Source of the DNA: a phage
Assembly (NCBI GenBank): GCA_012474735.1
Contig: GCA_012474735.1_4085.1
Length of the DNA stretch: 64,000 nucleotides
Direction: 5' to 3' (one strand)
The notes under the pieces are model-generated. The model saw nothing but the letters and a program-made list of their open reading frames with translations. It made no database searches and was not told the origin of the DNA. A program made the position numbers and the translations under genes. Each line of letters opens with the position of its first letter. Position 1 is the first letter of the stretch. Positions 12,691 through 24,135 of the stretch are shown here, one piece after another.

Positions 12691-12745
12691 GGGGAACCGC
12701 TCCCCCTATGCAAAACATTATACGCGTTTAAAAACTAATTGCAAG
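12691..12745 (-). promoter_or_regulatory. sigma70-like early promoter plus leader hairpin
   Basis: rc CTTGCA 12740..12745, TATAAT 12717..12722. Confidence 0.6.
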
Positions 12746-12781
12746 TATTTTAATAAAAAGTATTTGAAAAATAGTTGTTGA

Positions 12782-12810
12782 CAAGTGCATCCAGTACTGG
12801 CATAATTACT
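12782..12810 (+). promoter_or_regulatory. plus-strand promoter-like element
   Basis: TTGACA-N17-CATAAT, spacer contains CCAGTACTGG; followed at about +25 by CCCACAGGGTGCA motif. Confidence 0.4.
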
Positions 12811-12888
12811 ACATAAAGACGATACAGTCACTAACCCACAGGGTGCATAGATCCGTCTATTAAATGATTCAGTACTGAAAAAGTAACG

Positions 12889-12909
12889 GGGAGTTATTAT
12901 CTCCCCGCG
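12889..12909 (-). terminator. terminator hairpin
   Basis: CGGGGAG-N7-CTCCCCG with T-rich flank, after stop of 12913..13134. Confidence 0.5.
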
Positions 12910-12912
12910 TTG

Positions 12913-13134
12913 TTATTTGGTAAGGTATAAACAGAAGTCACCTTTATTTGCTACGCCGCCAGTGTAACGCGATGAATAGTTAGAAATATCTTGTACTTCT
13001 GCTATTACCAGTGTATCATCATTCATTTCGTCGCAGAAGCAAACGGCTGGATCTTTTACGCCGATATTGTCGGCATGTTCCCGCATAGATTTAACCAGTG
13101 CTTCCAGTTGAGAAAGAGTAGTGATATTAGCCAT
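12913..13134 (-). CDS. hypothetical protein (73 aa)
   Basis: trimmed to MANITTLS start. Confidence 0.5.
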   Translation of the reverse strand: MANITTLSQLEALVKSMREHADNIGVKDPAVCFCDEMNDDTLVIAEVQDISNYSSRYTGGVANKGDFCLYLTK

Positions 13135-13153
13135 TGTATTTTCCTCATTACCA

Positions 13154-13213
13154 GGGAGAACCATTTCTCCCCTCTATGTAAACTATTATACAGTACTGAA
13201 AACTAATTGCAAG
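13154..13213 (-). promoter_or_regulatory. sigma70-like early promoter plus leader hairpin
   Basis: rc TTGCAA 13207..13212, TATAAT 13185..13190. Confidence 0.6.
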
Positions 13214-13219
13214 TACTTT

Positions 13220-13408
13220 TTAATTAAATTCCATAAAATCATTCTCAACGTGCACTACAATCTGATTATTTTTAAAGTCCGCAGCGAACTCAATGCAATC
13301 ATATACTGCTTTTTCTGTTACCATGCTATGAGTACCAATCGGATTAATAGGGGATTGAATTGTTTCAATCTCGTTACCTTGTTCATTAACAATTAAAATA
13401 TTAAACAT
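13220..13408 (-). CDS. hypothetical protein (62 aa)
   Basis: ORF. Confidence 0.5.
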   Translation of the reverse strand: MFNILIVNEQGNEIETIQSPINPIGTHSMVTEKAVYDCIEFAADFKNNQIVVHVENDFMEFN

Positions 13409-13456
13409 CGCTGTTACTCCTGATAGTGTTTACCTGATATAAAGTATTATACGCCT

Positions 13457-13705
13457 TTATTGCTTAGTGTCCAGTACTTTTAAAACATAATCAAAGACAC
13501 CACGCACATCATTGATCATCGCCTGGCGGTTAGCAGGTAACGCATCAGGATCGCCACTATCCCAGGCATTGATAAAACTCCCCAAATCATGATAGATTTT
13601 ATTCTGTAAGCCGATTAACTGTAATTCTTTTTCTTCAAGCTCTTTGATGCGGTCGATTAAATCACTCATTAGATAATCCTCAGTACTTAACTGTAAGATC
13701 CGCAA
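13457..13705 (-). CDS. hypothetical protein (82 aa)
   Basis: ORF; overlaps upstream gene end. Confidence 0.5.
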   Translation of the reverse strand: MRILQLSTEDYLMSDLIDRIKELEEKELQLIGLQNKIYHDLGSFINAWDSGDPDALPANRQAMINDVRGVFDYVLKVLDTKQ

Positions 13706-13971
13706 CGGTCGCAGTAGTGCCCGTCATCGTCATCGTCAACGAATTGACCGACGAAATGATCTACTTTCGCTTTCAGGTTATTATAATCGTTTTCTACTTC
13801 CTTTAAACGCTTCTGGTAGTATTCCAGGGCTTGTAAATACGCCGCCTCAGCAGTTTTCTCCCGCATAGCTAAATTCATTCCACGCGATTCATCATACAGC
13901 CAAAAACCATCGGTGCACTGGCTAATAGATAATGACTTGCTTAGTACTGTATAGTTAATTACTTTACCCAT
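13687..13971 (-). CDS. hypothetical protein (94 aa)
   Basis: ORF; promoter unit 13990..14050. Confidence 0.55.
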   Translation of the reverse strand: MGKVINYTVLSKSLSISQCTDGFWLYDESRGMNLAMREKTAEAAYLQALEYYQKRLKEVENDYNNLKAKVDHFVGQFVDDDDDGHYCDRCGSYS

Positions 13972-13989
13972 TAGATAATCCTCAGTAAA

Positions 13990-14050
13990 GGCGGGAACTA
14001 TTCCCCGCCTCGATATAAAGTATTATACGTTAATCTAACTACAATGCAAG
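13990..14050 (-). promoter_or_regulatory. sigma70-like early promoter plus leader hairpin
   Basis: rc CTTGCA 14045..14050, TATAAT 14022..14027; hairpin GGCGGGAA-N4-TCCCCGCC. Confidence 0.6.
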
Positions 14051-14063
14051 TACTTTTTAAATT

Positions 14064-14330
14064 TTATAATCCTTTTACTGCATCAGGTGCGACTACTCCA
14101 TCAATGTATTGAACATCGTTTTCAACTTCACGGGCGGCATCATTCAGCAGATCAAAATTAAATTCCATTTCTTCCAGATCATCGAAATCAGGCTCATAAC
14201 CATTAATTGTTGAATAAGTCCAAGTACCTTTTTCATAAGTTACGACACTTACATCAGGGAAGAAATCTTGCACATGATCCATCGCATCCCGAACCAATTG
14301 ATGTGCAGTTGTGATATTTAAAGTTTTCAT
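14064..14330 (-). CDS. hypothetical acidic protein (88 aa)
   Basis: ORF; promoter unit 14351..14411. Confidence 0.55.
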   Translation of the reverse strand: MKTLNITTAHQLVRDAMDHVQDFFPDVSVVTYEKGTWTYSTINGYEPDFDDLEEMEFNFDLLNDAAREVENDVQYIDGVVAPDAVKGL

Positions 14331-14350
14331 TTTGTTGCCCTTTTAGTGTG

Positions 14351-14411
14351 AGCGGGGAACCACTCCCCGCCTCGATGTAAAGTATTATACGCTTTTAAAC
14401 TTAGTTTGCAA
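14351..14411 (-). promoter_or_regulatory. sigma70-like early promoter plus leader hairpin
   Basis: rc CTTGCA 14406..14411, TATAAT 14383..14388; hairpin GCGGGGAA-N3-CTCCCCGC. Confidence 0.6.
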
Positions 14412-14423
14412 GTACTTTTTAAA

Positions 14424-15035
14424 TTAATATGCGATTGATTCTACTACGCCATCAATAACATTGAATTGATATTCGTTACCCTCAATCAGTGCCGTAATGT
14501 TTTCAGTAGTGAATTGATCCTCATATGCATTCTCTAAATCACGGTACAACTTGCGGGATAATTCACGAATAGTTTCAGTGAGTAGTTCCTCAAGCTCATT
14601 AACTAACGTTTCTTGTTTTGCGGTTAAATCAGTGTAAGCCGATTCAATGTACCCGCTTACAGTATTCTCATGCGAGTAGTGGGAGTGAGAACGCTTTACA
14701 CTCATCGCCAAATCATCTTCATTCAGCAAGTGACGGATTGAGCGATACTTAGTTAATGCTCTTACCTTGCGTAAAAACTTCACTGCGTCAACGTGGTCAG
14801 TACTGATTGATGCACCGTCACCCTGGGACCAAAAACCACTGAATTGTATTTCAGCGTCATTAATGCCATATTCCGGTAGTACTGTTTCTTTATAGTATTC
14901 AATTTCACTTTCAGAAAAATAATTGTCGTTTGAGTTTTTTTCACGTTCCCGAACCAGTTCGATAGCCGCCGCTTGTTGTTCTGCGTTCAGTTCAGAAAAA
15001 GCCATAACGAAAGTAGTAGTAGTGATAGTTTTCAT
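14424..15035 (-). CDS. hypothetical protein (203 aa)
   Basis: ORF behind tandem promoter/leader module. Confidence 0.55.
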   Translation of the reverse strand: MKTITTTTFVMAFSELNAEQQAAAIELVREREKNSNDNYFSESEIEYYKETVLPEYGINDAEIQFSGFWSQGDGASISTDHVDAVKFLRKVRALTKYRSIRHLLNEDDLAMSVKRSHSHYSHENTVSGYIESAYTDLTAKQETLVNELEELLTETIRELSRKLYRDLENAYEDQFTTENITALIEGNEYQFNVIDGVVESIAY

Positions 15036-15067
15036 TTTGTAACCCTCATTCAGTAGTTTATGTAAGT

Positions 15068-15214
15068 ATTATACGCTTTTAAAAACATTTGTCAAACTAT
15101 TTTATCAGGGGAGTTTTTCGTGTGCCTTACTCCTGGGCTACTTAACGGGGAGTTACTTATTTCGTTCCCCGTCCTGATGTAAAACATTATACGCCTTTAA
15201 ACATAGTTTGCAAG
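15068..15214 (-). promoter_or_regulatory. tandem promoters flanking structured leader (copy 2)
   Basis: near-identical to 4555..4699; P-a 15068..15095, leader 15103..15173, P-b 15186..15214. Confidence 0.55.
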
Positions 15215-15257
15215 TACTTTTTAAAAATAGTTTTCAGTACTGAATAGTAAAAAGGTA

Positions 15258-15286
15258 TTGACAGCACTATCCAGTACTGGCATAAT
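15258..15286 (+). promoter_or_regulatory. plus-strand promoter-like element
   Basis: TTGACA-N17-CATAAT; convergent with minus promoter 15392..15420. Confidence 0.4.
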
Positions 15287-15391
15287 ATACCCCATGACAA
15301 CAGCTAACCCACCGGGTGCACAATTGTAACTGTACTAAACTAATTTTTCTATAGATACACTTCCGCACCCTATGGGCCACGGCTTATCTGC

Positions 15392-15420
15392 CAATGAATA
15401 CATTATGCCAGTACTGACAT
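15392..15420 (-). promoter_or_regulatory. minus-strand promoter-like element
   Basis: rc TTGACT-N17-CATAAT; mirror of 15258..15286. Confidence 0.4.
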
Positions 15421-15460
15421 TTTAAGTCAATACCGGCAATTGTAAATATTTGTAAACTAC

Positions 15461-15691
15461 TTATACTGCAATCGCGTCCAGGCTATAATAATAATAAGTG
15501 CCGTATTGGTGTACTTTATTACCTTTTATTTCAGTACTGAATGAATCCGAACGGTTTGCATATGATGTTAATTTAAAGTACTTTGATTTGCTGATACGTT
15601 GCCATACACCACAGATCCGCTGTAAGTAAGTAGTTTTATTCGTGGTAGTATCTTTTACGGTTTTAACTTCAGTCATATACATATTAGTCAT
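15461..15691 (-). CDS. hypothetical protein (76 aa)
   Basis: ORF; promoter unit 15713..15772. Confidence 0.5.
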   Translation of the reverse strand: MTNMYMTEVKTVKDTTTNKTTYLQRICGVWQRISKSKYFKLTSYANRSDSFSTEIKGNKVHQYGTYYYYSLDAIAV

Positions 15692-15712
15692 TTTTATTAC
15701 TCCAGGTTATAG

Positions 15713-15772
15713 GCGGGAAGAGTTCCCGCTCTCGATGTAAAACATTATACGCCTTTAAACATAGTTTGCAAG
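15713..15772 (-). promoter_or_regulatory. sigma70-like early promoter plus leader hairpin
   Basis: rc CTTGCA 15767..15772, TATAAT 15744..15749; hairpin GCGGGAA-GAG-TTCCCGC. Confidence 0.6.
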
Positions 15773-15778
15773 TACTTT

Positions 15779-16044
15779 TTATTCAAGTACTGCAATCTTT
15801 TTAGTACGGTACACGGTCACGCGGTTGCCCTTTCGGTCGAGCTTTATTTCTACCACTCGACGCGATACACTATCGGGACTTTTTAAGGCCGCTAACCAGT
15901 ACTGTAATGATCTGGCGGTACTACGCTTTACAATGGCCCAACGTTTACCACGTTCCGATTGTACGCCCATATCTTTAAACGTTGCCCCGTCCTGGCGTGC
16001 GGCGATCCGAGCTTGTTCACGCGTCGCAAAATACTTAATATTCA
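15779..16044 (-). CDS. hypothetical protein, paralog of 3348..3743
   Basis: trimmed to MNIKYFATRE start; shared motifs. Confidence 0.6.
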
Positions 16045-16133
16045 TGCTGTTGCCCTTATCGTTGGTGTATGAATAAAACACTATTATAAAGTACTATCCC
16101 CGTGCAATAGTACTTTAAATAAATTCTATTCTA

Positions 16134-16373
16134 TTACATTCCAACCATTGCCGCACGGATCGCAGTAGTGCTATATTTGAATCCGTCCGGTGTTTTATCT
16201 TGTCCAGTCTGTTCTAAAAATAACATCATATGACGGGCCGCATCATTGCGATTAGTGCTATCGTTAATAAAGTCCTGGGCCAACCGGTATAATGATTCAT
16301 CGTTATTAATCCAAAGGCTTACATTCCAATGAGTTTTGTTTTTGTGACCTAAGAACATTTTTGATTTAGCCAT
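16134..16373 (-). CDS. hypothetical protein (79 aa)
   Basis: ORF; promoter unit 16394..16452. Confidence 0.55.
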   Translation of the reverse strand: MAKSKMFLGHKNKTHWNVSLWINNDESLYRLAQDFINDSTNRNDAARHMMLFLEQTGQDKTPDGFKYSTTAIRAAMVGM

Positions 16374-16393
16374 TTTTTAATCCTCTTATATAG

Positions 16394-16452
16394 TGGGGAA
16401 CTATTCCCCACCTGATAGAAAGTATTATACTTGTTTTAACTTAGTATGCAAG
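16394..16452 (-). promoter_or_regulatory. sigma70-like early promoter plus leader hairpin
   Basis: rc CTTGCA 16447..16452, TATAAT 16424..16429; hairpin GTGGGGAA-N3-TTCCCCAC. Confidence 0.6.
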
Positions 16453-16465
16453 TACTTTATTAAAC

Positions 16466-16828
16466 TTATTTGTAAATTTTGCCACTGTCAGCCCATACCA
16501 GGAAACGATGCATATTATCCCATGCATCTTGTTTTAAATTTAAACCGTGCAATTCCTCAGTAGTTGCCATCCCTGGTACTGGCTTACTACACACCGCGAA
16601 ATTTTCGCCCATGTACTGATAAACCATCGTTAAATCATTTGAGATCATTATATGGATCATTGAATCAAGCATCAAAGTAGCGGCGTATTGTTCACGCTTA
16701 AGCGGCAACATTGCAATAAGTTCCCGATAAGCTGCAATGTGAATTTTTACAGTTTCAGCCGGAAGACCTTTCATCTCTTCGCGGAAGTTTACCAGGTTAA
16801 GCATGATTTTAGTGATTTGAGTCGCCAT
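16466..16828 (-). CDS. hypothetical protein (120 aa)
   Basis: trimmed to MATQITKIM start. Confidence 0.5.
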   Translation of the reverse strand: MATQITKIMLNLVNFREEMKGLPAETVKIHIAAYRELIAMLPLKREQYAATLMLDSMIHIMISNDLTMVYQYMGENFAVCSKPVPGMATTEELHGLNLKQDAWDNMHRFLVWADSGKIYK

Positions 16829-16852
16829 CGTTTTAATCTCTCTTAATGTGTA

Positions 16853-16912
16853 GCGGGAAGTGTTCCCGCTCTCGATGTAAAACATTATACGCTTTTATCA
16901 GTACGGTGCAAG
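16853..16912 (-). promoter_or_regulatory. sigma70-like early promoter plus leader hairpin
   Basis: rc CTTGCA 16907..16912, TATAAT 16884..16889; hairpin GCGGGAA-GTG-TTCCCGC. Confidence 0.6.
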
Positions 16913-17191
16913 TACTTTCTACAAATACTTTTAAAATAGTTTTCTTTCTATATAGGGGAACTATTATTCAGTACTGCAACCATCCAGGGGAACTATCTTT
17001 CTATATAGGAGTACTATTATTCAGTACTGAATCAATCAACCAAATCACTACTACACCCCGTAAAACGGCCTCAGACGCATTCTAACGCATTAATACACCC
17101 AAGCTATACATTTGCACCATTCCAATCATTCCAGGGCTTTACAGGCCGTTTAAACGCGTTAAATTATTTTCAATTATTTTGTTTTTAGCTA

Positions 17192-17219
17192 TTGACTCAG
17201 TACTAAAAAAGCGTATAAT
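17192..17219 (+). promoter_or_regulatory. plus-strand promoter-like element
   Basis: TTGACT-N16-TATAAT followed by TACTACATAGACG...GATCCGTC, similar to region after 12810. Confidence 0.4.
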
Positions 17220-17406
17220 TACTACATAGACGCGAGAAAGCGGATACCCCAGGGGGTGGGAAGATCCGTCCAAAATTCAAGATATAAAAAAAGGATACAC
17301 TCCCGCACCCTAGCAGGTTAACGCACTTTCTCAGTACTGAATTATAGTACCATAGTCCGGCCCAGGATGGCAAGCAAATTAATTAAAACTTTTTTCATCC
17401 AGGGTA

Positions 17407-17434
17407 TTGCTTTATTTTTCCAGTACTGTATAAT
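17407..17434 (+). promoter_or_regulatory. plus-strand promoter-like element
   Basis: TTGCTT-N16-TATAAT followed by CCCACCGGGTGCA motif. Confidence 0.35.
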
Positions 17435-18779
17435 AGTTCCATCAAGTCGAGAAAGACTCAAGCCCACCGGGTGCATAGTTACGCCCAAAATTCAGTACTG
17501 AAAAAATTTTTAAAAATATCCGTCCAGGCCGTTGACATTGCCCCCAGTTTATAAGATAATGATTCCAGATTCAGAAAAATCTAACTCCAGATACTGCGGG
17601 GAAACTATCCCCACGCGGTAGGGGAACTATTGGAAAAAACAAAATAAAATTTTGATTTAGCCGTCTATACTTCCAGACGTGTAACCATCTAGCCGTTTAG
17701 CCGTCTAGATGGATAGCCATCTTTACTTCCAGACTTCTGGAGGGCTAGACATATCTACGCCCAAAATCCATCCAGGGTAACTACGCCCAAAATCCGTCAG
17801 TACTATACCATAGATCTATCTTTTGAAAGGGAGTATTCAGTACTGCCATCATAGCCCTCACTATGTTACCCTAGGAGGATGAAGACTATCATGTAGTACT
17901 GAATACTGTTAGAGGGAATCCACCAGCTTGTGCTGGTGGCATAATGCTTTAGATTAAAATCAGTACTGACACCATTCTGTTAATATCAGTACTGTTATTA
18001 CGATTTTCATATGAGGTTCAAAAAGATGTACCACCACAGGAGGAACTATCTTTTCTGTACTGTCTCACGACAGGAGGTAGAGTAAATGAATTGTTCGCAG
18101 CAACTCATCTCTCTATGTAGAACATTATACAGTACTGAATCATAATGTCAATAGCTTTCTTTCATTATTCAGTACTGATATTCTTGAGAACTACCCGACT
18201 ACAAACATCATTATATCCCACAAATCATAAACGTCCCAACGTAAATTTCAACTTTCGAAGATCCAACTTTTATTTCATAGGTACTCCAAAATTTTTAGGA
18301 TCGAGATTTAGGATGGAGTACTAACCAACTTTTTGCTGGAGCCTCAAGGGGTAATTGAATTTTACCCCGAAGGGTAAAGGGGTAATTGAAATTAAGGTGA
18401 AAGTAATAATTCAGTACTAATCATTGCGTGATTACTTTTGATTACATTTGATGTAATTTGAAAAATGGAAAAGGAGCTTGGAAACTACAAAGTACGGCAG
18501 ACTTCCTCTGCCTACTTAGTGGCATATCAGTACTGAATCCTTCCCTAGCATTCTTGAGCAATCTTGTCTATACTAATCAGTACTGAATCATATATAATCA
18601 TTCTGTGATTCTACGGTGCTCATATAAATGTTTATATATGATTACTTATGACTACCTATGATTACGGGGTTTAGCCTGGGGAGAATCCTAGTGATCGCAT
18701 TTGTCCAGGCTGAATTTTAACAATTCGCCTGTACATAAAGGTTGTTCACTAGGAGCTTCCCCTGTCTACTTGTGTTTAA

Positions 18780-18971
18780 TTACTTCCTATATATAAGCAT
18801 TAAGATATAGTAGTACTGATTATACTGTACATTCTCTTTAATATTATAAGGGTCTATAGCAATCTCGGTACATCTGTTAAATGCATATCTATTAAATGCC
18901 AGTGGAATTATAGATCTAATCCATACTTGTTCATTTTCTTTTAGTTTACTTATATAGAAGTTTTTATACAT
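18780..18971 (-). CDS. small paralog family protein (63 aa)
   Basis: array family: N-term MxKxFY, C-term LIYRK. Confidence 0.55.
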   Translation of the reverse strand: MYKNFYISKLKENEQVWIRSIIPLAFNRYAFNRCTEIAIDPYNIKENVQYNQYYYILMLIYRK

Positions 18972-18986
18972 AGTATTCTCTATTAA

Positions 18987-19169
18987 TTAATATGATAGTA
19001 CTAGTGTTAGTACTGAGCACAATTGTTCTTTGTAGTTCTTAGGGTATATAGAATCTTTTATGCACTCATTGAAGTGCCATAGGTATAATCTTGGGTCGCA
19101 TTCTTTATATATTCTTACGGGGACGAATGTTAGTTTTCGTATATAGAATTCTTTATGTTCTTTATTCAT
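18987..19169 (-). CDS. small paralog family protein (60 aa)
   Basis: MNKEHKEFY start; array member. Confidence 0.55.
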   Translation of the reverse strand: MNKEHKEFYIRKLTFVPVRIYKECDPRLYLWHFNECIKDSIYPKNYKEQLCSVLTLVLSY

Positions 19170-19170
19170 A

Positions 19171-19359
19171 TTAGTACCTGAATATAAGTAGGATTATGTT
19201 ATAGTACTGGTTAGTACTGCAATGATTCTCTATACATCGATTAACAGTTATGGAATAGCTATATCTGGCGTAAGCATTATCCAGCGGGATTTTACATTGA
19301 GCACTTAGAGAAAGTACAGTAGGTAGTGTATTCAAATAGAAGTCTTTGTAATTATTCAT
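19171..19359 (-). CDS. small paralog family protein (62 aa)
   Basis: MNNYKDFYLNTLP ... LLIFRY. Confidence 0.6.
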   Translation of the reverse strand: MNNYKDFYLNTLPTVLSLSAQCKIPLDNAYARYSYSITVNRCIENHCSTNQYYNIILLIFRY

Positions 19360-19561
19360 ACAGGAATAGTATACCTATGATACCTGAGTACAGGTTAGTA
19401 CTGTTACCATCTTCGTTTGCGTTTAAAGTCATTTGAATACAATTATTGTAGCATACTCTGCCGAAAAATGTATTAGTACTTAAAGGTGGAGTATTCCTTA
19501 GAAACATTTGTTCTGAGGGGCTTATGTATTTGGAGTAGAATTCTTTATGTTCTTTATTCAT
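19352..19561 (-). CDS. small paralog family protein (69 aa)
   Basis: MNKEHKEFY ... ILFLYE. Confidence 0.6.
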   Translation of the reverse strand: MNKEHKEFYSKYISPSEQMFLRNTPPLSTNTFFGRVCYNNCIQMTLNANEDGNSTNLYSGIIGILFLYE

Positions 19562-19566
19562 ATTAG

Positions 19567-19752
19567 TTAGTGTCTGTATATAAGTAATAGTAAGAATACG
19601 TACTGCACATCTTCATCTTTAGTATTGAGTACTGTACGTATTGCGTCATGGAACAAGAATATAGTACTTGGGTCATGAAAATTTAAAGGGGTTCTGGGTA
19701 CGGCATGTTTGTAGTTCCCTTTAACAAATTGTGTGTAGTATTCTCTATGCAT
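19567..19752 (-). CDS. small paralog family protein (61 aa)
   Basis: MHREYYTQF ... LLLIYRH. Confidence 0.6.
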   Translation of the reverse strand: MHREYYTQFVKGNYKHAVPRTPLNFHDPSTIFLFHDAIRTVLNTKDEDVQYVFLLLLIYRH

Positions 19753-19753
19753 A

Positions 19754-19939
19754 TTAGTACCTATATATTAGGGCGAGAATGTAGTACAATTCATATGGAA
19801 TGTAATTTGGGGTGATCGCACACTGTGTATGGTAAATGAATTGTTCGGTATTTTTCTTATCCTTGATATCTATTGGGATTTGTGGTATAAGCATTTGGGA
19901 GTTTAGATCGAGGTGGCTTAAGTAGAATTCTTTATGCAT
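19754..19939 (-). CDS. small paralog family protein (61 aa)
   Basis: MHKEFYLSHL ... LALIYRY. Confidence 0.6.
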   Translation of the reverse strand: MHKEFYLSHLDLNSQMLIPQIPIDIKDKKNTEQFIYHTQCAITPNYIPYELYYILALIYRY

Positions 19940-19948
19940 ATTGTTCTC

Positions 19949-20137
19949 TTAGAATACGAAAGCTAGGTACAGGGTATGATACAGTACTCGATGATAGCTG
20001 TCAAAATCTAGTATACATGCTTTAGTGCACATAGTAAAGTACACTTTCTCGTTTTGTGCATTGATACCGCGAGGTTTATCTAATAGATTAGTTCTGAGGT
20101 ACATTGGGAAATATTTTGTGTAGTATTCTTTATGCAT
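19949..20137 (-). CDS. small paralog family protein (62 aa)
   Basis: trimmed to MHKEYYTKYF start; LYLAFVF end. Confidence 0.55.
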   Translation of the reverse strand: MHKEYYTKYFPMYLRTNLLDKPRGINAQNEKVYFTMCTKACILDFDSYHRVLYHTLYLAFVF

Positions 20138-20138
20138 A

Positions 20139-20321
20139 TTAGTACCTGAATATAAGTAGGATAGTGTTATATAGCTGGTCATAACTACTACTATTTTCTA
20201 TACTTCGTTCTATGCAGTTATTGAATCCCAGTACTGCCAAATCGTTATCCATAGGGACTTTATATCTGGCGTAGTGTTCAAAAATGCTGGGGAGAAATTG
20301 TGTGTAGTATTCTTTGTGCAT
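20139..20321 (-). CDS. small paralog family protein (60 aa)
   Basis: MHKEYYTQFLP ... LLIFRY. Confidence 0.6.
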   Translation of the reverse strand: MHKEYYTQFLPSIFEHYARYKVPMDNDLAVLGFNNCIERSIENSSSYDQLYNTILLIFRY

Positions 20322-20322
20322 A

Positions 20323-20508
20323 TTAGTACCTATATATTAGTAAAAGGATGTGATACAGTACTCGATTATAGTCTTCAATATATATCGAGGATTTAGTGCA
20401 CTGAATGAAGTAGTCTTTTTCGTAGTTTTTTTCTATACCCAATGCAACGTTTGGTACAAGGTGTTGGAGATACATTGGGAGTTTCTCTATGTAGTATTCT
20501 TTATACAT
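20323..20508 (-). CDS. small paralog family protein (61 aa)
   Basis: MYKEYYIEKLP ... LLLIYRY. Confidence 0.6.
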   Translation of the reverse strand: MYKEYYIEKLPMYLQHLVPNVALGIEKNYEKDYFIQCTKSSIYIEDYNRVLYHILLLIYRY

Positions 20509-20517
20509 ATATTATCC

Positions 20518-20718
20518 TTAGTACTGGAACGCAAGGTACAGGGTGTGGTACAGTTGTACTTGATAATTGTTTTCATTAGCTTCTTCATTAAGTACTTGTT
20601 CAGTACATGTACGGAAGTAATCAGCTTCATATATACAGTCAATACCGCGAGGTTCATCTTCTAATAGATTTCCTTGTAGAAACTTTGGTAGTTCTTTTAT
20701 GTAGAATTCTTTATACAT
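20518..20718 (-). CDS. small paralog family protein (66 aa)
   Basis: trimmed to MYKEFYIKELP start; LYLAFQY end. Confidence 0.55.
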   Translation of the reverse strand: MYKEFYIKELPKFLQGNLLEDEPRGIDCIYEADYFRTCTEQVLNEEANENNYQVQLYHTLYLAFQY

Positions 20719-21382
20719 AGTTTGTAATATACGTAATGAGGTGATGCATTTTCTTATTAGTACTGATAATTTCCTGTACATGTTTTGTCAGATTGTACGC
20801 GTTTTTATAGAGTGCTGGATTATCGATTACAGTACTGTACATGAATAGTTCTTCCTCGGATAATTCTTTGCCTTGTAATTCTTTGAGGAATTGTAGTACT
20901 GTATCAGTTTCTTCTGTACGTTGTGCTTGCCAGAAGTGCATATTCTCGTGTACTTTTTCTGCATCAGTAGAGTATATGCCACCCATTTGGAATTGTGCTG
21001 TATTGACATCGTGGGAGGTGTTACAATTCCCGAAGAAGTATGTATTCCCGAAGTATAGCATTAAAGTGCACGGGGTATTATCCAACTGCATATTGATGAT
21101 GAAGGATGCGTTCTTTAGTACCTTTGTGCTCGTATTAGTACTCAATACTTTTAAATCAGTATTATAGATATTCATATAATGAACAGCTATATTATTTTTC
21201 TTCATGTACAATTCAAGGTTCTTTGATACGTTAACTCCATTTGTACTGGATTTTTCCTTTTTATTTCGTTTCTTTAGTACATTCGGGTGATACGTATATG
21301 CAGATGTAACTGATTCTGCCTGAATACTATTGAGGTACTTAAAGTGCTTAAGGTATTGTTTGCTGTGTGCATTAAGTTTCAT
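20711..21382 (-). CDS. hypothetical protein (223 aa) embedded in small-gene array
   Basis: ORF; no recognisable domain. Confidence 0.5.
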   Translation of the reverse strand: MKLNAHSKQYLKHFKYLNSIQAESVTSAYTYHPNVLKKRNKKEKSSTNGVNVSKNLELYMKKNNIAVHYMNIYNTDLKVLSTNTSTKVLKNASFIINMQLDNTPCTLMLYFGNTYFFGNCNTSHDVNTAQFQMGGIYSTDAEKVHENMHFWQAQRTEETDTVLQFLKELQGKELSEEELFMYSTVIDNPALYKNAYNLTKHVQEIISTNKKMHHLITYITNYV

Positions 21383-21392
21383 TTGGTTTCCT

Positions 21393-21572
21393 TTATATAG
21401 ATGCCAGGGCGAGGATTTCCCTGTAGGGATTATCTTGTGTTAGTACAGCATAAATGCAGCTATTGAGATTAATATTTTTAGTACTTTTTGTTCCTAGTTT
21501 GTAGTACTTCACGAAGGTGTCGTACATGAAACGGTCTTTTATGGTTATACGTTCTCTATAGAATTGTTGCAT
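21393..21572 (-). CDS. small paralog family protein (59 aa)
   Basis: found by eye below cutoff; MQQFYRERIT start. Confidence 0.4.
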   Translation of the reverse strand: MQQFYRERITIKDRFMYDTFVKYYKLGTKSTKNINLNSCIYAVLTQDNPYREILALASI

Positions 21573-21580
21573 AGTATTCC

Positions 21581-21763
21581 TTAAATAGCGATTAGTTTCA
21601 TTACTTCTCTGTATGTGTACTTTTCGTTTTGTGCATCTCTTGTGACGACATATAGGAAGGTGTGTTTATCTTTTTTGTTCCCGCAATTGTAGAAAATATT
21701 GAACTTATTGAAGTTGAATCTTTCGGCGTGTTGTAGTTTAGTTAAATAGAATTCTATGTTCAT
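21581..21763 (-). CDS. small paralog family protein (60 aa)
   Basis: MNIEFYLTKL ... MKLIAI. Confidence 0.55.
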   Translation of the reverse strand: MNIEFYLTKLQHAERFNFNKFNIFYNCGNKKDKHTFLYVVTRDAQNEKYTYREVMKLIAI

Positions 21764-21771
21764 TTTCTTCC

Positions 21772-21957
21772 TTACATTTCAATAAGTTTCAGTACTGCTC
21801 GGTACGTGTACTTAGTTGTCAGTGCTTCTTTAATAGAAATACAGAAGTAATGTTGTTTGTCTCTTATACTGCCGCGTTTGTAGTACCACACATGGGAGTT
21901 GTGACTGTACTTGTCTCTGTCGGATAGTTGTTGGTAGTAGTAGCTTATATGATTCAT
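21772..21957 (-). CDS. small paralog family protein (61 aa)
   Basis: MNHISYYYQQL ... LKLIEM. Confidence 0.55.
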   Translation of the reverse strand: MNHISYYYQQLSDRDKYSHNSHVWYYKRGSIRDKQHYFCISIKEALTTKYTYRAVLKLIEM

Positions 21958-22004
21958 TGTAATTAGCCTTACTATGTTAAAGTACTCGGTCCCTGGTGTA
22001 CCTT

Positions 22005-22199
22005 TTAGAACTTAAAGATGAGGTTCAGGATAGAGCGGTACTTAGTTGCAGGGAACGTATGTTCTATTGCATAACGTGTCACCATCCTGAAATCGTAATT
22101 ATAATACAGATTATCCTTTCTCATAGGTGGTGCTAAAGAGAATGATAGCTGTTCTTGTTTGGGTAGTTTACTACAATAGAAATCTTTATGATTATTCAT
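22005..22199 (-). CDS. small paralog family protein (64 aa)
   Basis: MNNHKDFYCSKLP ... LNLIFKF. Confidence 0.6.
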   Translation of the reverse strand: MNNHKDFYCSKLPKQEQLSFSLAPPMRKDNLYYNYDFRMVTRYAIEHTFPATKYRSILNLIFKF

Positions 22200-22401
22200 A
22201 GAAATATATTAGTCCTATTAAACCTGAGTACATAATATTTTTGTTATTACATTCGATTGCTTCTATAGTACTACGTATACAATTATTAAAGCAATCTCTG
22301 GCGTGTGGTGTATCTATACTTAAAGGTGATACACTCCTTAGAAACAATTGTTCTTCGTTGCTAAGGTATTTGGTGTAGAATTCTTTATGTTCAGTATTCA
22401 T
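22192..22401 (-). CDS. small paralog family protein (69 aa)
   Basis: MNTEHKEFYTKYL ... LIYFYE. Confidence 0.6.
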   Translation of the reverse strand: MNTEHKEFYTKYLSNEEQLFLRSVSPLSIDTPHARDCFNNCIRSTIEAIECNNKNIMYSGLIGLIYFYE

Positions 22402-22402
22402 A

Positions 22403-22606
22403 TTAGTACTCGATTAAAAGGGCAAGGATATAATAGTATTGCATACTTTCTGCCCCTTGTAAAGCATTTCTTATGATATTACTCCTGTACGAGTTCAGGA
22501 GTTTAGGACAACGTTTGTAGTGTATAAAAGTATTTTGTGTATACAGTAGGCTTTCTCGTAGACCTTTTGTTGGTAGTGCATCGATGTAGTACTGTTCAAT
22601 GTTCAT
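22403..22606 (-). CDS. small paralog family protein (67 aa)
   Basis: MNIEQYYIDALP ... LALLIEY. Confidence 0.55.
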   Translation of the reverse strand: MNIEQYYIDALPTKGLRESLLYTQNTFIHYKRCPKLLNSYRSNIIRNALQGAESMQYYYILALLIEY

Positions 22607-22830
22607 ATAGATAGCAGTACTAAGATTTTTGATAATTGTTTATTGCTATCCCCGCAGATGTTGCTGTGTAAAATACTCACAATGAGGGTATCAATTGCAT
22701 TGTTCATCATAAGGGTGCATCCTGGACTATTATAATTTTTTAGCTCAATTAGCCACGAACTATCCGCGAGAAATTCCCCGTACTCTAGTTCATTTAGAGT
22801 ATTGAGGTAGTACTTAAGAGTATTTGTCAT
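22603..22830 (-). CDS. small paralog family protein (75 aa)
   Basis: MTNTLKYYLNTL ... array member. Confidence 0.5.
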   Translation of the reverse strand: MTNTLKYYLNTLNELEYGEFLADSSWLIELKNYNSPGCTLMMNNAIDTLIVSILHSNICGDSNKQLSKILVLLSI

Positions 22831-22932
22831 GTGTAGTTCTCCTTATATTCCTTCTATAGTACACCAGTACTGAAAGGATGTCAAGGGTTTTCTTTATGGG
22901 GTAAATATGATATAATGAATAAGGAGGGAAAT

Positions 22933-24135
22933 ATGTTACCTTTTGGAAGAATGGTTAAGTACGCAAATATTGCACCAGGTCCAGAACCTGTAGAGTTCTC
23001 AGATGTTTTACAACAACATTATACAAACTGTATGTATCTACATAACCCAACTAATACTTTATATGGTTATGGTAGTAATAACATGTATCAATTTGGTCTT
23101 GGGAATTCAGCAGCAGTTTCGTCATTTACAGTACTTGCAAGGAACTGTGCAGCCTTTTGGCTTGGTGTTCAAGGTTCGTTGATGATTGATTTGGATAATA
23201 AAATATACTACACTGGGTCTGTGGCTGCATTTTCTGATTATGGAGATGCAACACCTGTTAATGGTTATTTGACAACATGGACTGATGTTACTGTTGCATT
23301 TAATAAAATAGGTGTTATGGCTAATATGATCAAGAGTGTATATATAGGTGAAAGTACTAGAATATTATTAACCGATGGTAGAGTAATTGCGTGTGGAAGA
23401 AATACCAATGGTGAATGTGGCTCTGGTAATAAAAATTCCATCCCTACACTCACAGTTATGACTAATATGGGTGAAGTTACACATATGGCATGTTCATTAC
23501 AAGGAACGCACTATATCAAATCAAATAAAGATGCATGGTTTTGTGGTAAGGATAACTTTGGTGAAAGTGGATGTGGTGGTAGTTCTGTTGTATATTTGAA
23601 CAAATTCGTGATTAGTAATGTAGAACATATTAGTACTACATACGATGTTACTTGGTGGTTTACTACTGGTGGGTCTGTATATTATAGCGGGGCTAACAGT
23701 ACTGGACAAGCGGGTAATGGTACGACTACATCGGTAAATCAGCTAACACCAATTAGGAACACATCGGTCACGGTTGATGTAAGTAAGTACAGTACTTTTA
23801 TTTGTCCAAGTAATATGGGAAATGCATCAATTGGTGCACCTATGGCACAATACGCACCATATGTTAGAAGTAGTGGTGCTAACTCATATGGTCAAGAAGG
23901 TAATGGAACTAATACATTAGTTAGAACTTGGAATATTTTTAATCTTAGTGCAATAAGTGGTGGTTATGAAAATGTTCTTATGGCATCTAAAGATTGGAGC
24001 AGAACCATAATAATTACTAAAGATTATAAATTATATGCATGTGGTGGCTGGAATGGAAATGGTGGTAGATTGCCAGATGGCACTTATAGTATTACTACAC
24101 TAACATTAATGCCAACGCAGTTATGGCAACAATAG
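22933..24135 (+). CDS. RCC1-like beta-propeller repeat protein, array member 1
   Basis: start MLPFGRMVKYANIAPG after AAGGAGGG; repeated G-x-N-x-x-G-Q-x-G-x-G blades. Confidence 0.7.
   Translation: MLPFGRMVKYANIAPGPEPVEFSDVLQQHYTNCMYLHNPTNTLYGYGSNNMYQFGLGNSAAVSSFTVLARNCAAFWLGVQGSLMIDLDNKIYYTGSVAAFSDYGDATPVNGYLTTWTDVTVAFNKIGVMANMIKSVYIGESTRILLTDGRVIACGRNTNGECGSGNKNSIPTLTVMTNMGEVTHMACSLQGTHYIKSNKDAWFCGKDNFGESGCGGSSVVYLNKFVISNVEHISTTYDVTWWFTTGGSVYYSGANSTGQAGNGTTTSVNQLTPIRNTSVTVDVSKYSTFICPSNMGNASIGAPMAQYAPYVRSSGANSYGQEGNGTNTLVRTWNIFNLSAISGGYENVLMASKDWSRTIIITKDYKLYACGGWNGNGGRLPDGTYSITTLTLMPTQLWQQ

What the first reader, a model, noticed from the sequence alone, without database searches (positions are those of the whole stretch)
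16920..18780. 1.8 kb non-coding region rich in iterons and hairpins
No ORF of 60 aa or more lies here, in an otherwise coding-dense genome. It holds several direct-repeat families (ACGCCCAAAAT(T/C)C four times, GGGGAACTAT four to five times, CTTTCTATATAGG twice, GGGGTAATTGAA twice), strong hairpins, and promoter-like elements on both strands. That architecture fits a replication origin, packaging site, or cluster of small RNAs.
Basis: seen in the sequence. Interest (0 to 1): 0.7.

Follow-up and report, generated by a model that had tools for sequence, protein, structure and literature searches.

The report
Jumbo-phage genome end and early leader
This gene-free stretch is where the linear chromosome of a giant E. 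coli virus starts and is cut for packaging; it holds host-type promoters, RecBCD 'Chi' signals and small structured RNA elements, and I found no published description of most of these.

Summary
The window comes from an Asteriusvirus (Rak2-like jumbo coliphage; relatives include G17, 121Q, PBECO4 and fEgEco12). The gene-free stretch is real and runs from about 16829 to 18779. It is not a tRNA cluster, not a gene, and not any Rfam family.

It contains the physical left end of the genome. Base 1 of fEgEco12 (ends set by PhageTerm and restriction digests) and the last base of G17 (ends set by coverage) both map to window 18516. Positions 1-18516 are therefore the ~21-kb direct terminal repeat, and 18517 onward is unique DNA. 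All seven known cut sites in three genera read inside-NNT^TAGY-outside (CT^ at six).

Between the end and the first early gene lies an architecture shared across at least six genus-level lineages:
- an inverted-repeat element;
- a back-to-back Chi pair;
- consensus sigma-70 promoters on both strands, carrying a CAGTACTG palindrome;
- an 8-bp-period repeat array;
- three copies of a promoter-coupled two-hairpin RNA motif.

The RNA motif has 10 copies in this repeat and 22 more in two other genera. Every copy lies inside the terminal repeat, and the first helix covaries.

Its packaging-site reading is supported, its small-RNA reading is plausible, and its replication-origin reading is unsupported.

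The parts
16466..16828 (-). First early gene of the terminal repeat (g01 homologue, 120 aa). The longer 139-aa ORF reaching 16885 is probably over-extended.
   Evidence: Aligns to fEgEco12 g01. 121Q and CRJP21 annotate the 363-nt form. ATG 16885 lies within the -10 box. No Pfam match.
16884..16911 (-). g01 promoter (TTGCAC-16-TATAAT), followed by a 5' UTR hairpin GCGGGAA-cac-TTCCCGC.
   Evidence: Read from the sequence, with coordinates. Conserved across relatives.
16943..17048 (-). Two tandem ~53-bp repeats. Each carries CAGTACTG-AATAAT-AGTTCCCC-TATATAGAAAGA on the - strand (a -35-less promoter or operator module).
   Evidence: Repeat family D5. Copy number varies among relatives: deletion in G17 and A4, extra copy in JNE01.
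17192..17267 (+). Unit L-A: promoter TTGACT-16-TATAAT (17192-17219) plus the two-hairpin RNA motif (17225-17267). It points toward the genome end.
   Evidence: (42.5 bits). Conserved in Klebsiella, Xanthomonas-, Cronobacter-, Erwinia- and Yersinia-phage relatives.
17285..17373 (-). Unit R-A, convergent with L-A: promoter TTGCCA-18-TACTAT (17373-17344), RNA motif (17340-17297), and a terminator-like hairpin with a T7 run (17311-17285).
   Evidence: The convergent pair is conserved in at least six lineages.
17407..17500 (+). Unit B: promoter TTGCTT-16-TATAAT with CAGTACTG in the spacer, RNA motif (17440-17482), tail ACGCCCAAAATTC, and a trailing CAGTACTG.
17532..17612 (+). Promoter TTGACA-17-GATAAT (17532-17560) and the start of a structured candidate transcript that includes hairpin GGGGAAACTATCCCC (17598-17612).
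   Evidence: The fold of 17567-17760 has z = -4.4.
17655..17745 (.). Array of 8-bp-period repeats (AGCCRTYY / NNNCRTCT). Copy number is variable.
   Evidence: (D7). All nine relatives carry 32-56 extra nt at 17686. Homologous arrays occur in XbC2, pEa_SNUABM_12, GAP32 and fHe-Yen9-04.
17752..17798 (+). Two tandem 26-nt copies of the unit-B tail (TAnCTACGCCCAAAATCC). Function unknown.
   Evidence: (D6).
17920..17939 (.). Back-to-back Chi pair CCACCAGC-TTGT-GCTGGTGG, which also forms a hairpin. The + strand Chi (17932) is correctly oriented for RecBCD entering at the left genome end.
   Evidence: 11 Chi in the window, 0.52 expected. Conserved in most Asteriusvirus relatives, with the loop flipped from TTGT to ACAA, and in Munch and fENko-Kae01 at 484-503 from their left end.
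17955..18151 (-). Leftmost perfect-consensus sigma-70 promoter of the genome (TTGACA-16-TATAAT, 18151-18124) and a ~160-nt structured candidate RNA. The RNA ends at a 14-bp hairpin built from two CAGTACTG palindromes (17994-17961).
   Evidence: Fold z = -4.9.
18280..18322 (.). Inverted-repeat element GGTACTCCA-N25-TGGAGTACT containing TTTAGGAT twice. Over the genus-level lineages sampled, no other block of the leader kept as high an identity.
   Evidence: About 92% identical in Salmonella phage Munch and Klebsiella phage fENko-Kae01, and present in XbC2.
18348..18390 (.). GGGGTAATTGAA twice, including hairpin GGGGTAA-ttgaatt-TTACCCC.
18429..18462 (.). TGATTAC-type repeats phased at 10 bp, 55-88 bp inside the terminus. 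A second set lies at 18629-18665 outside it.
   Evidence: Repeat family D3. Conserved within the genus.
18496..18512 (.). Terminal hairpin GGCAGA-cttcc-TCTGCC. GACTTC (= GAAGTC at +12..+17 counted from the end) is conserved in position.
   Evidence: GAAGTC lies at +12..+17 in fEgEco12, XbC2 and pEa_SNUABM_12, and AAAGTC in Muenster.
18516..18517 (.). Physical left end of the genome, which is also the left boundary of the ~21-kb direct terminal repeat. This is the terminase cut ...CTGCCTACT^TAGTGG...
   Evidence: fEgEco12 base 1 and G17 last base both align to 18516. The fEgEco12 ends come from PhageTerm plus restriction digests (PMC13070987). The G17 repeats come from sequence coverage (PMC6563267).
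18517..18538 (.). Outer flank of the cut, TAGTGGCATATCAGTACTGAAT. It is identical (22 of 22) in Klebsiella phage Muenster and is a likely terminase recognition sequence.
18672..18768 (-). Long imperfect inverted repeat (23-nt arms). It is a terminator-like structure downstream of the last gene of the unique region.
   Evidence: Inverted repeat I10. Conserved.

Best explanation
The region is the left-terminal non-coding leader of a Rak2-like jumbo phage genome (genus Asteriusvirus). In this window it is joined to the right end of the unique DNA.

SHOWN
- The terminus determined in close relatives maps to 18516|18517. Window 1-18516 is the direct terminal repeat, read right to left, and 18517 onward is unique.
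- All seven known repeat-boundary cuts in three genera carry ^TAG(C/T) just outside the genome, and six carry CT^ just inside.
- Perfect sigma-70 consensus promoters, Chi sites and a promoter-coupled two-hairpin RNA motif are all confined to, or strongly enriched in, the repeat.
- The order of elements is conserved in at least six genus-level lineages: end, inverted-repeat element, Chi pair, 8-bp array, convergent RNA-unit pair, first gene.

INFERRED
- Terminase recognises the conserved flank TAGTGGCATATCAGTACTGAAT and cuts at CT^TAG in concatemers.
- After DNA entry, host RNA polymerase fires from the consensus promoters on both strands, producing short structured RNAs and the early mRNAs.
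- The CAGTACTG palindrome abutting the -10 box is an operator or regulatory site for a phage factor.
- The outward-facing Chi pair converts RecBCD entering at the left end from a destructive to a recombinogenic mode within about 600 bp.
- The 8-bp array and the 10-bp-phased TGATTAC repeats bind a protein, for example the small terminase subunit.
- The two-hairpin motif acts at the RNA level on early transcripts, through stabilisation, protein binding or modification of RNA polymerase.
For: Identity
- The region is 90-98% identical to 27 Asteriusvirus records across the whole query.

Terminus
- fEgEco12 base 1 and G17 base 370817 both map to 18516.
- The first bases of G17 equal the reverse complement of the fEgEco12 right cut.
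- fEgEco12 has 20,993-bp repeats, established by PhageTerm and restriction digests. G17 has ~20-kb redundancy by coverage.
- Cut motif.
- Distant relatives place homologous pieces 0.04-1.4 kb from record position 1, inside annotated terminal repeats.

Promoters
- There are eleven 12-of-12 sigma-70 matches in 1-18516, all in gene sense, and none in 18517-38000.

Chi
- 11 sites against 0.52 expected, with 9 in the repeat.
- The same enrichment and strand bias hold in fENko-Kae01 (12 top, 2 bottom in the repeat; 1 and 1 outside) and in Muenster (7 and 1; 0 and 0 outside).

RNA motif
- 10 copies in the window, all in the repeat, and 22 more in two other genera, all in their repeats.
- Helix 1 covaries: score 0.408 against 0.146 for shuffles, and 0.347 against 0.147 in the second set, with 0 of 500 shuffles as high in each case.
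- 31 of 32 copies sit no more than 5 nt downstream of a sigma-70-like promoter scoring at least 9 of 12, against 6% of random positions.

Conservation
- The leader is as conserved as the flanking genes.
Against: - No read-level data exist for this particular genome, so the terminus is transferred by homology. The cut motif itself is 100% conserved here.
- No transcript, protein-binding or RecBCD data are available. Every functional role beyond the position of the end is inference.
- The short stems of the RNA motif (3-5 bp) are thermodynamically weak, and RNAalifold does not recover helix 1. The covariation counts were made on model-fitted alignments.
- A generic 9-of-12 promoter scan is not enriched within the region itself.
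- One of the seven cuts (fENko-Kae01, left) reads TA^TAG rather than CT^TAG.
- Chi orientation is also co-directional with transcription, so the strand bias could partly reflect coding-strand composition.
Confidence: 0.85

Rival explanations
1. Replication origin: the short repeat array acts as iterons, flanked by promoters that activate or prime initiation, and the GC-skew flip marks the origin.
For: - There is an 8-bp-period array with variable copy number.
- Strong promoters point both ways.
- GC skew changes sign, and GC content drops from 0.39 to 0.33, at 18.0-18.7 kb.
- The non-coding DNA is highly conserved.
Against: - There are no DnaA boxes with one mismatch or fewer, and no 30-nt stretch of at least 28 A/T.
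- An 8-bp period does not place sites on one helical face.
- No initiator-like gene is adjacent, and the flanking ORFs have no Pfam match.
- The skew flip coincides exactly with the repeat boundary, and the genes from 22.9 to 35.2 kb lie on the other strand.
- In T5, similar terminal repeat regions are not the origin (bioRxiv 10.1101/866236).
- This reading is not mutually exclusive with the best explanation.
Confidence: 0.12
2. The region's primary role is as a locus of small regulatory or decoy RNAs. The promoter-coupled two-hairpin units and the longer structured transcripts would be trans-acting RNAs that reprogramme the host or counter a defence system, and their position next to the genome end would be incidental.
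For: - At least five short promoter-driven units lie here. Three carry the covarying motif.
- Unit R-A ends in a hairpin with a U7 run.
- The 168-nt and 194-nt candidates fold with z = -4.9 and -4.4.
- 13 of 32 motif copies are antisense to genes and so cannot be mRNA leaders.
Against: - Most units lack a recognisable terminator.
- 19 of 32 copies are sense and lie upstream of genes, as leaders would.
- No Rfam family matches.
- No expression data are available.
- This reading does not explain the terminus, the Chi pair, the arrays or the inverted-repeat element, all of which are conserved in position relative to the end.
Confidence: 0.35
3. A DNA-entry control or end-protection signal, analogous to the T5 injection-stop region. 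The repeats and palindromes would bind host or phage proteins that pause genome transfer or shield the entering end.
For: - Like the T5 LTR untranslated repeat regions, it is a ~1-2 kb, highly conserved, repeat- and palindrome-rich non-coding block. It lies within a long terminal repeat and overruns into unique DNA (compared).
- A Chi pair lies near the end.
Against: - It lies at the outer left end of the repeat, not at the inner boundary where T5 transfer stops.
- The paired DnaA boxes that define the T5 signal are absent.
- Two-step transfer has not been reported for these phages in the papers I read.
Confidence: 0.1
4. A decayed coding region or an assembly artefact at a collapsed repeat.
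For: - Some GenBank records annotate many short hypothetical proteins here.
- The window runs straight through the repeat junction.
Against: - The ORFs are not conserved and have no family match.
- The same sequence and order recur in more than 35 independent records.
- The junction sequence equals the internal unique/right-repeat junction of fEgEco12.
Confidence: 0.02

Closest known systems
Left-end non-coding leader of phage T7 (terminal repeat, short-repeat arrays, strong host promoters A1-A3 ahead of gene 0.3). From my own knowledge of Dunn & Studier 1983; not checked here.
   Same: A gene-free leader at the end that carries the early genes. It contains the terminase cut or concatemer junction, arrays of short direct repeats, and strong sigma-70 promoters used immediately after entry.
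   Different: - This one is ten times the scale: a ~21-kb repeat against 160 bp, and a 1.7-kb leader.
- Its promoters fire in both directions.
- It carries a Chi pair, promoter-coupled RNA hairpin units and a CAGTACTG spacer palindrome.
- There is no sequence similarity, and the phage RNA-polymerase promoters involved in T7 packaging are absent.
T5 left-terminal-repeat 'untranslated repeat regions' / injection stop signal (bioRxiv 10.1101/866236)
   Same: - A long (~10-20 kb) direct terminal repeat carrying small pre-early genes.
- A 1.2-kb conserved non-coding block crowded with direct repeats, inverted repeats and palindromes.
- The block overruns the repeat boundary by about 270 bp. The figure here is 263 bp.
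   Different: - The T5 block is at the inner (right) boundary of the left repeat, while this one is at the physical left end.
- The T5 block is defined by eight paired DnaA boxes, and none occur here.
- Promoters, Chi and RNA units are not features of the T5 block.
Terminally clustered, oriented Chi sites in phages P1 and LLS (PMC12315714)
   Same: The exact GCTGGTGG sequence is strongly over-represented near the genome ends or terminal repeats, with a strand bias that makes the sites active for RecBCD entering from an end.
   Different: - This is a virulent jumbo myovirus.
- The cluster fills a 20-kb exact repeat.
- The left end is guarded by a single back-to-back pair that forms a hairpin about 0.5-0.6 kb from the end, and this pair is conserved across genera.
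- RecBCD dependence has not been tested.
Promoter-proximal antitermination RNAs: lambda nut (boxA + boxB) and HK022 put. From my own knowledge.
   Same: A short hairpin with a purine-rich loop, or two adjacent hairpins, is encoded immediately downstream of early promoters. The stem sequence is free to vary while the loop or box is conserved.
   Different: - There is no boxA near any unit.
- The hairpin starts only about 5 nt from the transcript start.
- About 40% of copies are antisense to genes.
- There are about ten copies per repeat, not two per genome.
- No similarity to any Rfam model.
- Function untested.

Membership tests
Direct-terminal-repeat boundary / terminase cut site of Rak2-like jumbo phages | Maps to an experimentally determined physical end in a close relative | tested here: met
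   fEgEco12 base 1 (PhageTerm plus digests) and G17 last base (coverage) both align to window 18516.
Direct-terminal-repeat boundary / terminase cut site of Rak2-like jumbo phages | The same short motif at both repeat boundaries and across relatives | tested here: met
   Seven cuts in fEgEco12/window, G17, fENko-Kae01 and Muenster all have ^TAG(C/T) outside. Six of the seven have CT^ inside.
Direct-terminal-repeat boundary / terminase cut site of Rak2-like jumbo phages | Read-start pile-up or two-fold coverage step at this position in this genome | not testable with these tools
   No sequencing reads are available for the window's source.
Sigma-70 early promoters | -35 TTGACA and -10 TATAAT with 16-18 bp spacing | tested here: met
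   In the region: a 12-of-12 match at 18151-18124(-) and 11-of-12 matches at 17192-17219(+) and 17532-17560(+). Across the repeat there are eleven 12-of-12 sites, against none in the next 19.5 kb.
Sigma-70 early promoters | Mapped transcription start sites, early timing | not testable with these tools
   I found no transcriptome for this genus among the 29 papers that mention it.
Iteron or DnaA-type replication origin | DnaA boxes and an AT-rich unwinding element | tested here: not met
   No TTATCCACA with one mismatch or fewer, and no 30-mer with at least 28 A/T, in 16886-18779.
Iteron or DnaA-type replication origin | Iterons phased with the helix, next to an initiator gene | tested here: not met
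   The array period is 8 bp. The flanking ORFs have no Pfam match.
T5 injection-stop / LTR untranslated repeat region | Conserved repeat- and palindrome-rich non-coding block inside a long terminal repeat | tested here: met
   compared with the description.
T5 injection-stop / LTR untranslated repeat region | Paired DnaA boxes, and a position at the inner repeat boundary (~8% of the genome) | tested here: not met
   No DnaA boxes. The block sits at the outer left end.
Chi (RecBCD) hotspot cluster at phage ends | Exact GCTGGTGG, enriched over chance and concentrated at the ends | tested here: met
   11 sites against 0.52 expected, with 9 in the repeat. Replicated in two other genera.
Chi (RecBCD) hotspot cluster at phage ends | Orientation active for RecBCD entering from the end | tested here: met
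   The Chi at 17932(+) faces the left end. In the repeats, 7, 12 and 7 genome-top-strand sites face the right end, against 2, 2 and 1 on the other strand. The orientation rule follows PMC12315714.
Chi (RecBCD) hotspot cluster at phage ends | RecBCD-dependent effect on growth or recombination | not testable with these tools
   This needs genetics.
lambda-type nut site | boxA (CGCUCUUA) adjacent to a boxB hairpin | tested here: not met
   No boxA-like sequence within 60 nt of any of the 10 units.
HK022 put-like cis-acting antiterminator RNA | Two adjacent stem-loops directly downstream of an early promoter | tested here: met
   Model R1 copies start no more than 5 nt after the -10 box in 31 of 32 cases. 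Helix 1 covaries, and helix 2 is conserved in sequence.
HK022 put-like cis-acting antiterminator RNA | Terminator read-through conferred in cis; sequence or structure homology to put | not testable with these tools
   No put model was available. No Rfam match of any kind.
tRNA cluster / known RNA family | ARAGORN or Rfam match | tested here: not met
   No tRNA or tmRNA. No Rfam hits at gathering score or at E<=1.

The most novel reading that the evidence does not exclude
The terminal repeat of Rak2-like jumbo phages carries a new RNA family that is absent from Rfam. It is a ~40-nt two-hairpin element: a covarying 3-5-bp stem with a GNGAAA-type loop, followed by a conserved RCCC-N3-4-GGGUGC box. 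Each copy is fused to the transcription start of a strong sigma-70 promoter. There are about ten copies per repeat, in both orientations, and three of them lie in this leader. On the most novel reading, this is a previously unknown RNA-based immediate-early system. It could be a protein-independent or small-protein-dependent modifier of host RNA polymerase (put- or nut-like), or a set of abundant decoy RNAs. That system would be coupled to a genome end protected by an outward-facing Chi pair.
Probability: 0.3. Interest if true: 0.75.

Novelty: new variant of a known kind. Interest (0 to 1): 0.55.

Why it matters
Rak2-like jumbo phages are widely isolated for therapy, yet about 80% of their genes, and essentially all of their cis-acting DNA, are uncharacterised.

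Placing the packaging cut, and a motif shared by both repeat boundaries, gives a concrete terminase substrate. It also gives a rule for orienting and correctly opening the many circularly deposited records.

The repeat emerges as a self-contained immediate-early module: consensus host promoters, oriented Chi sites and a repeated 5' RNA element. This suggests how a 350-kb genome survives RecBCD and takes over transcription in the first minutes of infection. It also yields directly testable elements: the Chi pair, the CAGTACTG operator and the RNA motif.

Tried and rejected
- tRNA or tmRNA cluster: none found.
- Known RNA families: none found at gathering score or at E<=1.
- Hidden protein genes: six ORFs of 44-79 aa have no Pfam or PHROG match, and most are broken in relatives. 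The two that stay open lie in near-invariant DNA, and their frame is lost in Klebsiella homologues through an 11-nt length difference.
- DnaA boxes or an AT-rich unwinding element: absent.
- Fur boxes: I noticed them in the Klebsiella phage Muenster leader, but none scoring at least 14 of 19 occur in the window's leader.
- lambda boxA next to the hairpins: absent.
- Type III toxin-antitoxin (ToxI-like) antitoxin mimic, suggested by the ...AAAATTC tails: rejected. There is no tandem array of ~36-nt units, and each unit has its own promoter.
- CRISPR-repeat mimic: considered by eye for the terminal hairpin plus CTTAG. I did not pursue it, because the resemblance to type I-F repeats is superficial and the site is a DNA cut.
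- A third conserved helix or pseudoknot in the RNA motif: pairings differ between copies, and RNAalifold finds almost nothing.
- A literature search for CAGTACTG in phage papers returned only primer hits.
- GC skew as an origin signal: judged uninformative, because it coincides with the repeat boundary and with changes in gene orientation.
Full report
**What the window is.** The region and its flanks are 90-98% identical over their full length to 27 jumbo coliphage records of the genus Asteriusvirus, including CRJP21, JP4, PBECO4, phAPEC6, G17, Sharanji, 121Q and fEgEco12. Most careful annotations leave this stretch empty. No tRNA or tmRNA is present in the window. No Rfam family matches, either at gathering score over the window or at E<=1 over 16700-19000.

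**Checking the observation.**
- The gene-free character is real. Six ORFs of 44-79 aa in the region have no Pfam or PHROG match. Most are interrupted by stops or frameshifts in nine aligned relatives.
- The statement 'no ORF >=60 aa' is mechanically wrong. A 79-aa ORF lies at 16846-17085 (+), but it is broken in 8 of 9 relatives.
- The left neighbour g01 is listed as 139 aa starting at 16885. That ATG lies inside the gene's own -10 box. The ATG at 16828, preceded by AAGAGAG, gives the 120-aa form annotated in 121Q and CRJP21. The gene-free stretch is therefore 16829-18779.
The palindrome CAGTACTG occurs 12 times in the region and 58 times in the window, against about 1 expected.

**The physical genome end lies inside the finding.**
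- fEgEco12 is a 374,733-bp linear record with 20,993-bp direct terminal repeats, established by PhageTerm and confirmed by restriction digests (PMC13070987). G17 is a 370,817-bp record whose ~20-kb terminal redundancy was inferred from coverage (PMC6563267).
- Base 1 of fEgEco12 and the last base of G17 both align to window position 18516. The first bases of G17 are the exact reverse complement of the fEgEco12 right-hand cut. Two independent determinations therefore agree to the nucleotide at both ends.
- Window 1-18516 is thus the terminal repeat, read in reverse, with its early genes on the - strand. Positions 18517 onward are the right end of the unique region.
- In more distant Rak2-like phages, the homologous pieces of this region lie 0.04-1.4 kb from record position 1. 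In Muenster and fENko-Kae01 they lie inside repeats annotated from PhageTerm. In XbC2, Munch, fHe-Yen9-04, pEa_SNUABM_12 and GAP32 they lie in a 1-1.9 kb gene-free leader.

**A shared cut-site motif.** Written with the packaged genome on the left, the known cuts are:
- fEgEco12/G17 right: ...GGTAACCT^TAGCGAC
- fEgEco12/G17/window left: ...CTGCCTACT^TAGTGGCATATCAGTACTGAAT
- fENko-Kae01 right: ...CATGCCT^TAGCCAC
- fENko-Kae01 left: ...GAAGATA^TAGCGGAAG
- Muenster right: ...TTAGGCT^TAGCACT
- Muenster left: ...AACGGACT^TAGTGGCATATCAGTACTGAAT

All have TAG(C/T) immediately outside, and all but one have CT inside, so the two boundaries of the repeat carry the motif in inverted orientation. The 22-nt outer flank of the left cut is identical in the Escherichia and Klebsiella phages, although the inner sequence differs. 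Inside the end, GAAGTC sits at +12 to +17 in fEgEco12, XbC2 and pEa_SNUABM_12, and AAAGTC in Muenster. In the window this hexamer forms part of the hairpin GGCAGA-cttcc-TCTGCC (18496-18512). That terminase recognises these sequences is my inference.

**A conserved leader architecture.** Within the genus the leader is as conserved as the coding flanks. Conservation dips only just outside the cut, at 18540-18620. Scanning the left ends of fEgEco12, fENko-Kae01, Munch, XbC2, pEa_SNUABM_12, GAP32, fHe-Yen9-04 and Muenster shows the same order of elements:
- **Inverted-repeat element.** GTACTCCA...TGGAGTAC (window 18280-18322) is about 92% identical in Munch and fENko-Kae01.
- **Back-to-back Chi pair.** It lies at window 17920-17939, and at 484-503 in Munch and fENko-Kae01.
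- **8-bp-period array.** It lies at window 17655-17745. Every relative has 32-56 more nucleotides here, so copy number varies.
- **Convergent pair of promoter-plus-hairpin units.**
- **First gene.**

fHe-Yen9-04 shows the same order shifted by about 700 bp, so its record start is probably not the true end.

**Promoters.**
- The terminal repeat holds eleven perfect TTGACA-16/17-TATAAT matches, all on the gene-sense strand. The adjacent 19.5 kb holds none.
- The promoter closest to the end lies in the finding at 18151-18124 (-). Others lie at 17192-17219 (+), 17407-17435 (+), 17532-17560 (+), 17373-17344 (-) and 16911-16884 (-).
- In most of them CAGTACTG fills the spacer and abuts the -10 box.
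CTTTCTATATAGG belongs to a 53-bp tandem repeat of a -35-less copy of this module (16943-17048), whose copy number varies among relatives.
- The CBB paper had already noted RpoD-like promoters with UP elements in the early and terminal-repeat regions of this phage group (PMC5259590). It did not mention the palindrome or the leader.

**A promoter-coupled RNA motif.**
- Two + strand units in the finding (17225-17267 and 17440-17482) and one - strand unit (17340-17297) share a plan. Each has a short hairpin with a purine-rich loop (GAGAAA, AGAUAA or GCGAAA). A 1-4-nt linker follows, then a conserved RCCC-N3-4-GGGU hairpin followed by GC.
- A covariance model built from 21 copies finds ten copies in the window, all within 1-18516. 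With filters off, nothing credible appears in the other 45 kb.
- Out of sample, it finds 10 copies in the first 45 kb of fENko-Kae01 and 12 in Muenster. Every one lies inside the annotated terminal repeat.
- Helix 1 covaries. All four pairs change on both sides. The covariation score is 0.408 against 0.146 for shuffles (0 of 500 as high) and at most 0.10 for slid partners. The second set gives 0.347 against 0.147.
- By eye, at least 15 different stems are used, among them CGC/GCG, AGUC/GACU, UGAG/CUCA, AUUG/CAAU, GACG/CGUC, AGCA/UGCU, UCCA/UGGA, ACAAA/UUUGU, GCCA/UGGC and GGAG/CUCC.
- 31 of 32 copies begin no more than 5 nt after the -10 box of a sigma-70-like promoter scoring at least 9 of 12, against 6% of random positions. 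19 are sense and 13 antisense to the early genes.
- Caveats: the stems are only 3-5 bp, RNAalifold does not recover helix 1, the counted alignments were fitted to the model, and helix 2 is conserved in sequence with a single compensatory variant (ACGC/GCGU in Muenster and RaK2).
- The motif is therefore the 5' end of many early transcripts. What it does is unknown. The plan resembles lambda nut or HK022 put, but no boxA is nearby.
- Two longer promoter-driven candidates fold with z = -4.9 (18117 to 17950, -) and z = -4.4 (17567-17760, +).

**Chi.**
- GCTGGTGG occurs 11 times in the window against 0.52 expected, and nine of these are in the repeat.
- The orientation rule restated in PMC12315714 is that Chi is active on the strand whose 3' end is at the entry point. 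By that rule, seven sites face RecBCD entering from the right genome end. Two, at 17932 and 11249, face the left end.
- The first of these two is the + strand half of the pair in the finding, about 580 bp from the end. The pair is arranged so that an enzyme coming from either side meets its active Chi first.
- The pair is kept in most Asteriusvirus relatives, with the 4-nt loop flipped between TTGT and ACAA. It is also kept in Munch and fENko-Kae01, in otherwise diverged DNA.
- The enrichment and strand bias recur in the repeats of fENko-Kae01 (12 and 2 inside; 1 and 1 outside) and Muenster (7 and 1 inside; 0 and 0 outside).
- Terminal Chi clusters are already known in P1 and in lambdoid phage LLS. 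I found no report of them for jumbo phages, though this rests on a single four-term literature search.

**Rivals.**
- A replication origin is not supported. There are no DnaA boxes and no AT-rich stretch. The repeats have an 8-bp period and no initiator gene is nearby. The GC-skew flip and GC drop at 18.0-18.7 kb coincide with the repeat boundary and with a block of + strand genes.
- A T5-like injection-stop signal shares the general look but lacks the defining DnaA boxes and sits at the wrong boundary.
- A pure small-RNA locus does not explain the end-anchored conserved order.
- These roles are not mutually exclusive with the main reading.

**Novelty.**
- Already published: the ~20-kb terminal repeats and their coordinates in the fEgEco12, G17, Muenster and fENko-Kae01 records (CBB is reported with a 22.5-kb repeat), and the presence of RpoD-like promoters in early regions.
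- Apparently undescribed: I found nothing on the terminal leader, the cut-site motif, the Chi pair and its orientation pattern, the CAGTACTG/AGTACT over-representation, the 8-bp array or the RNA motif.
- I therefore file the region as a new variant of a known kind of element: a phage genome-end leader with its packaging site and early promoters. It contains one component, the RNA motif, that may be new in kind.

Noticed in passing
window 1-64000: The hexamer AGTACT (ScaI palindrome) occurs 274 times against 21 expected, in coding and non-coding DNA. It also forms the stems of terminators (GCCAGTAC-nnn-GTACTGGC) after each gene at 22.9-35 kb. It is enriched in fENko-Kae01 and Muenster too, especially inside their terminal repeats.
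   Followed up: partly
window 1-18516; L029 and L030 (first 45 kb of fENko-Kae01 and Muenster): The whole terminal repeat is Chi-rich, at about one site per 2 kb. It has a strong strand bias (7:2, 12:2 and 7:1), and the adjacent unique DNA has almost none. A second back-to-back pair flanks a 228-bp intergenic gap at 11187(-)/11249(+).
   Followed up: partly
window 17.5-19.5 kb: GC skew flips from about -0.1 to +0.1..+0.3, and GC falls from 0.39 to 0.33, exactly at the repeat boundary. Yet the small ORFs on both sides (to 22.8 kb) are on the same strand.
   Followed up: no
window 22915-35174 (+): There are about ten tandem paralogous genes of ~360-430 aa. The two I tested match RCC1-like beta-propeller domains (PF25390, PF00415).
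   Followed up: partly
window 18780-22800 (-): A long run of tandem ~60-aa ORFs lies here. Many are 60-63 aa and back-to-back, and they have no Pfam match. This is probably a paralogous small-protein family just outside the right-hand repeat.
   Followed up: no
L003 6060-6600 (Muenster leader); L017 ~345, L019 ~1045, L004/L029 ~1045: Fur-box-like sequences (for example AATGAGAATCATTATCATT, 14-16 of 19 to the consensus) occur at least six times in the Klebsiella phage Muenster leader. One copy sits between the convergent RNA units in the Erwinia, Yersinia and fENko-Kae01 phages. The Escherichia phages have GAATTTTGGAC at that position instead.
   Followed up: partly
window 16829-16885: The 139-aa form of g01 annotated in fEgEco12 and G17 starts at an ATG inside the gene's own -10 box. 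The 120-aa form (ATG 16828), used in 121Q and CRJP21, fits the promoter, the 5' UTR hairpin and the ribosome-binding site better.
   Followed up: partly
L017 1-150 (Yersinia phage fHe-Yen9-04): The record starts inside the 8-bp-period array. All leader landmarks are shifted by about 700 bp relative to the other genera, which suggests the deposited start is not the physical end.
   Followed up: no
window 17040-17190: This 150-bp stretch is 94-100% conserved and has no assigned role. It contains inverted repeat AAACGGCC...GGCCGTTT (17063/17144), ACGCATT twice, and the palindrome AACGCGTT. ATTCTAACGCATTAA recurs beside the second Chi pair at ~11.2 kb.
   Followed up: no
window 15258-15430: A second convergent pair of promoter-plus-RNA-motif units (15284-15327 + and 15398-15357 -) lies inside the repeat. 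It mirrors the pair in the finding.
   Followed up: partly
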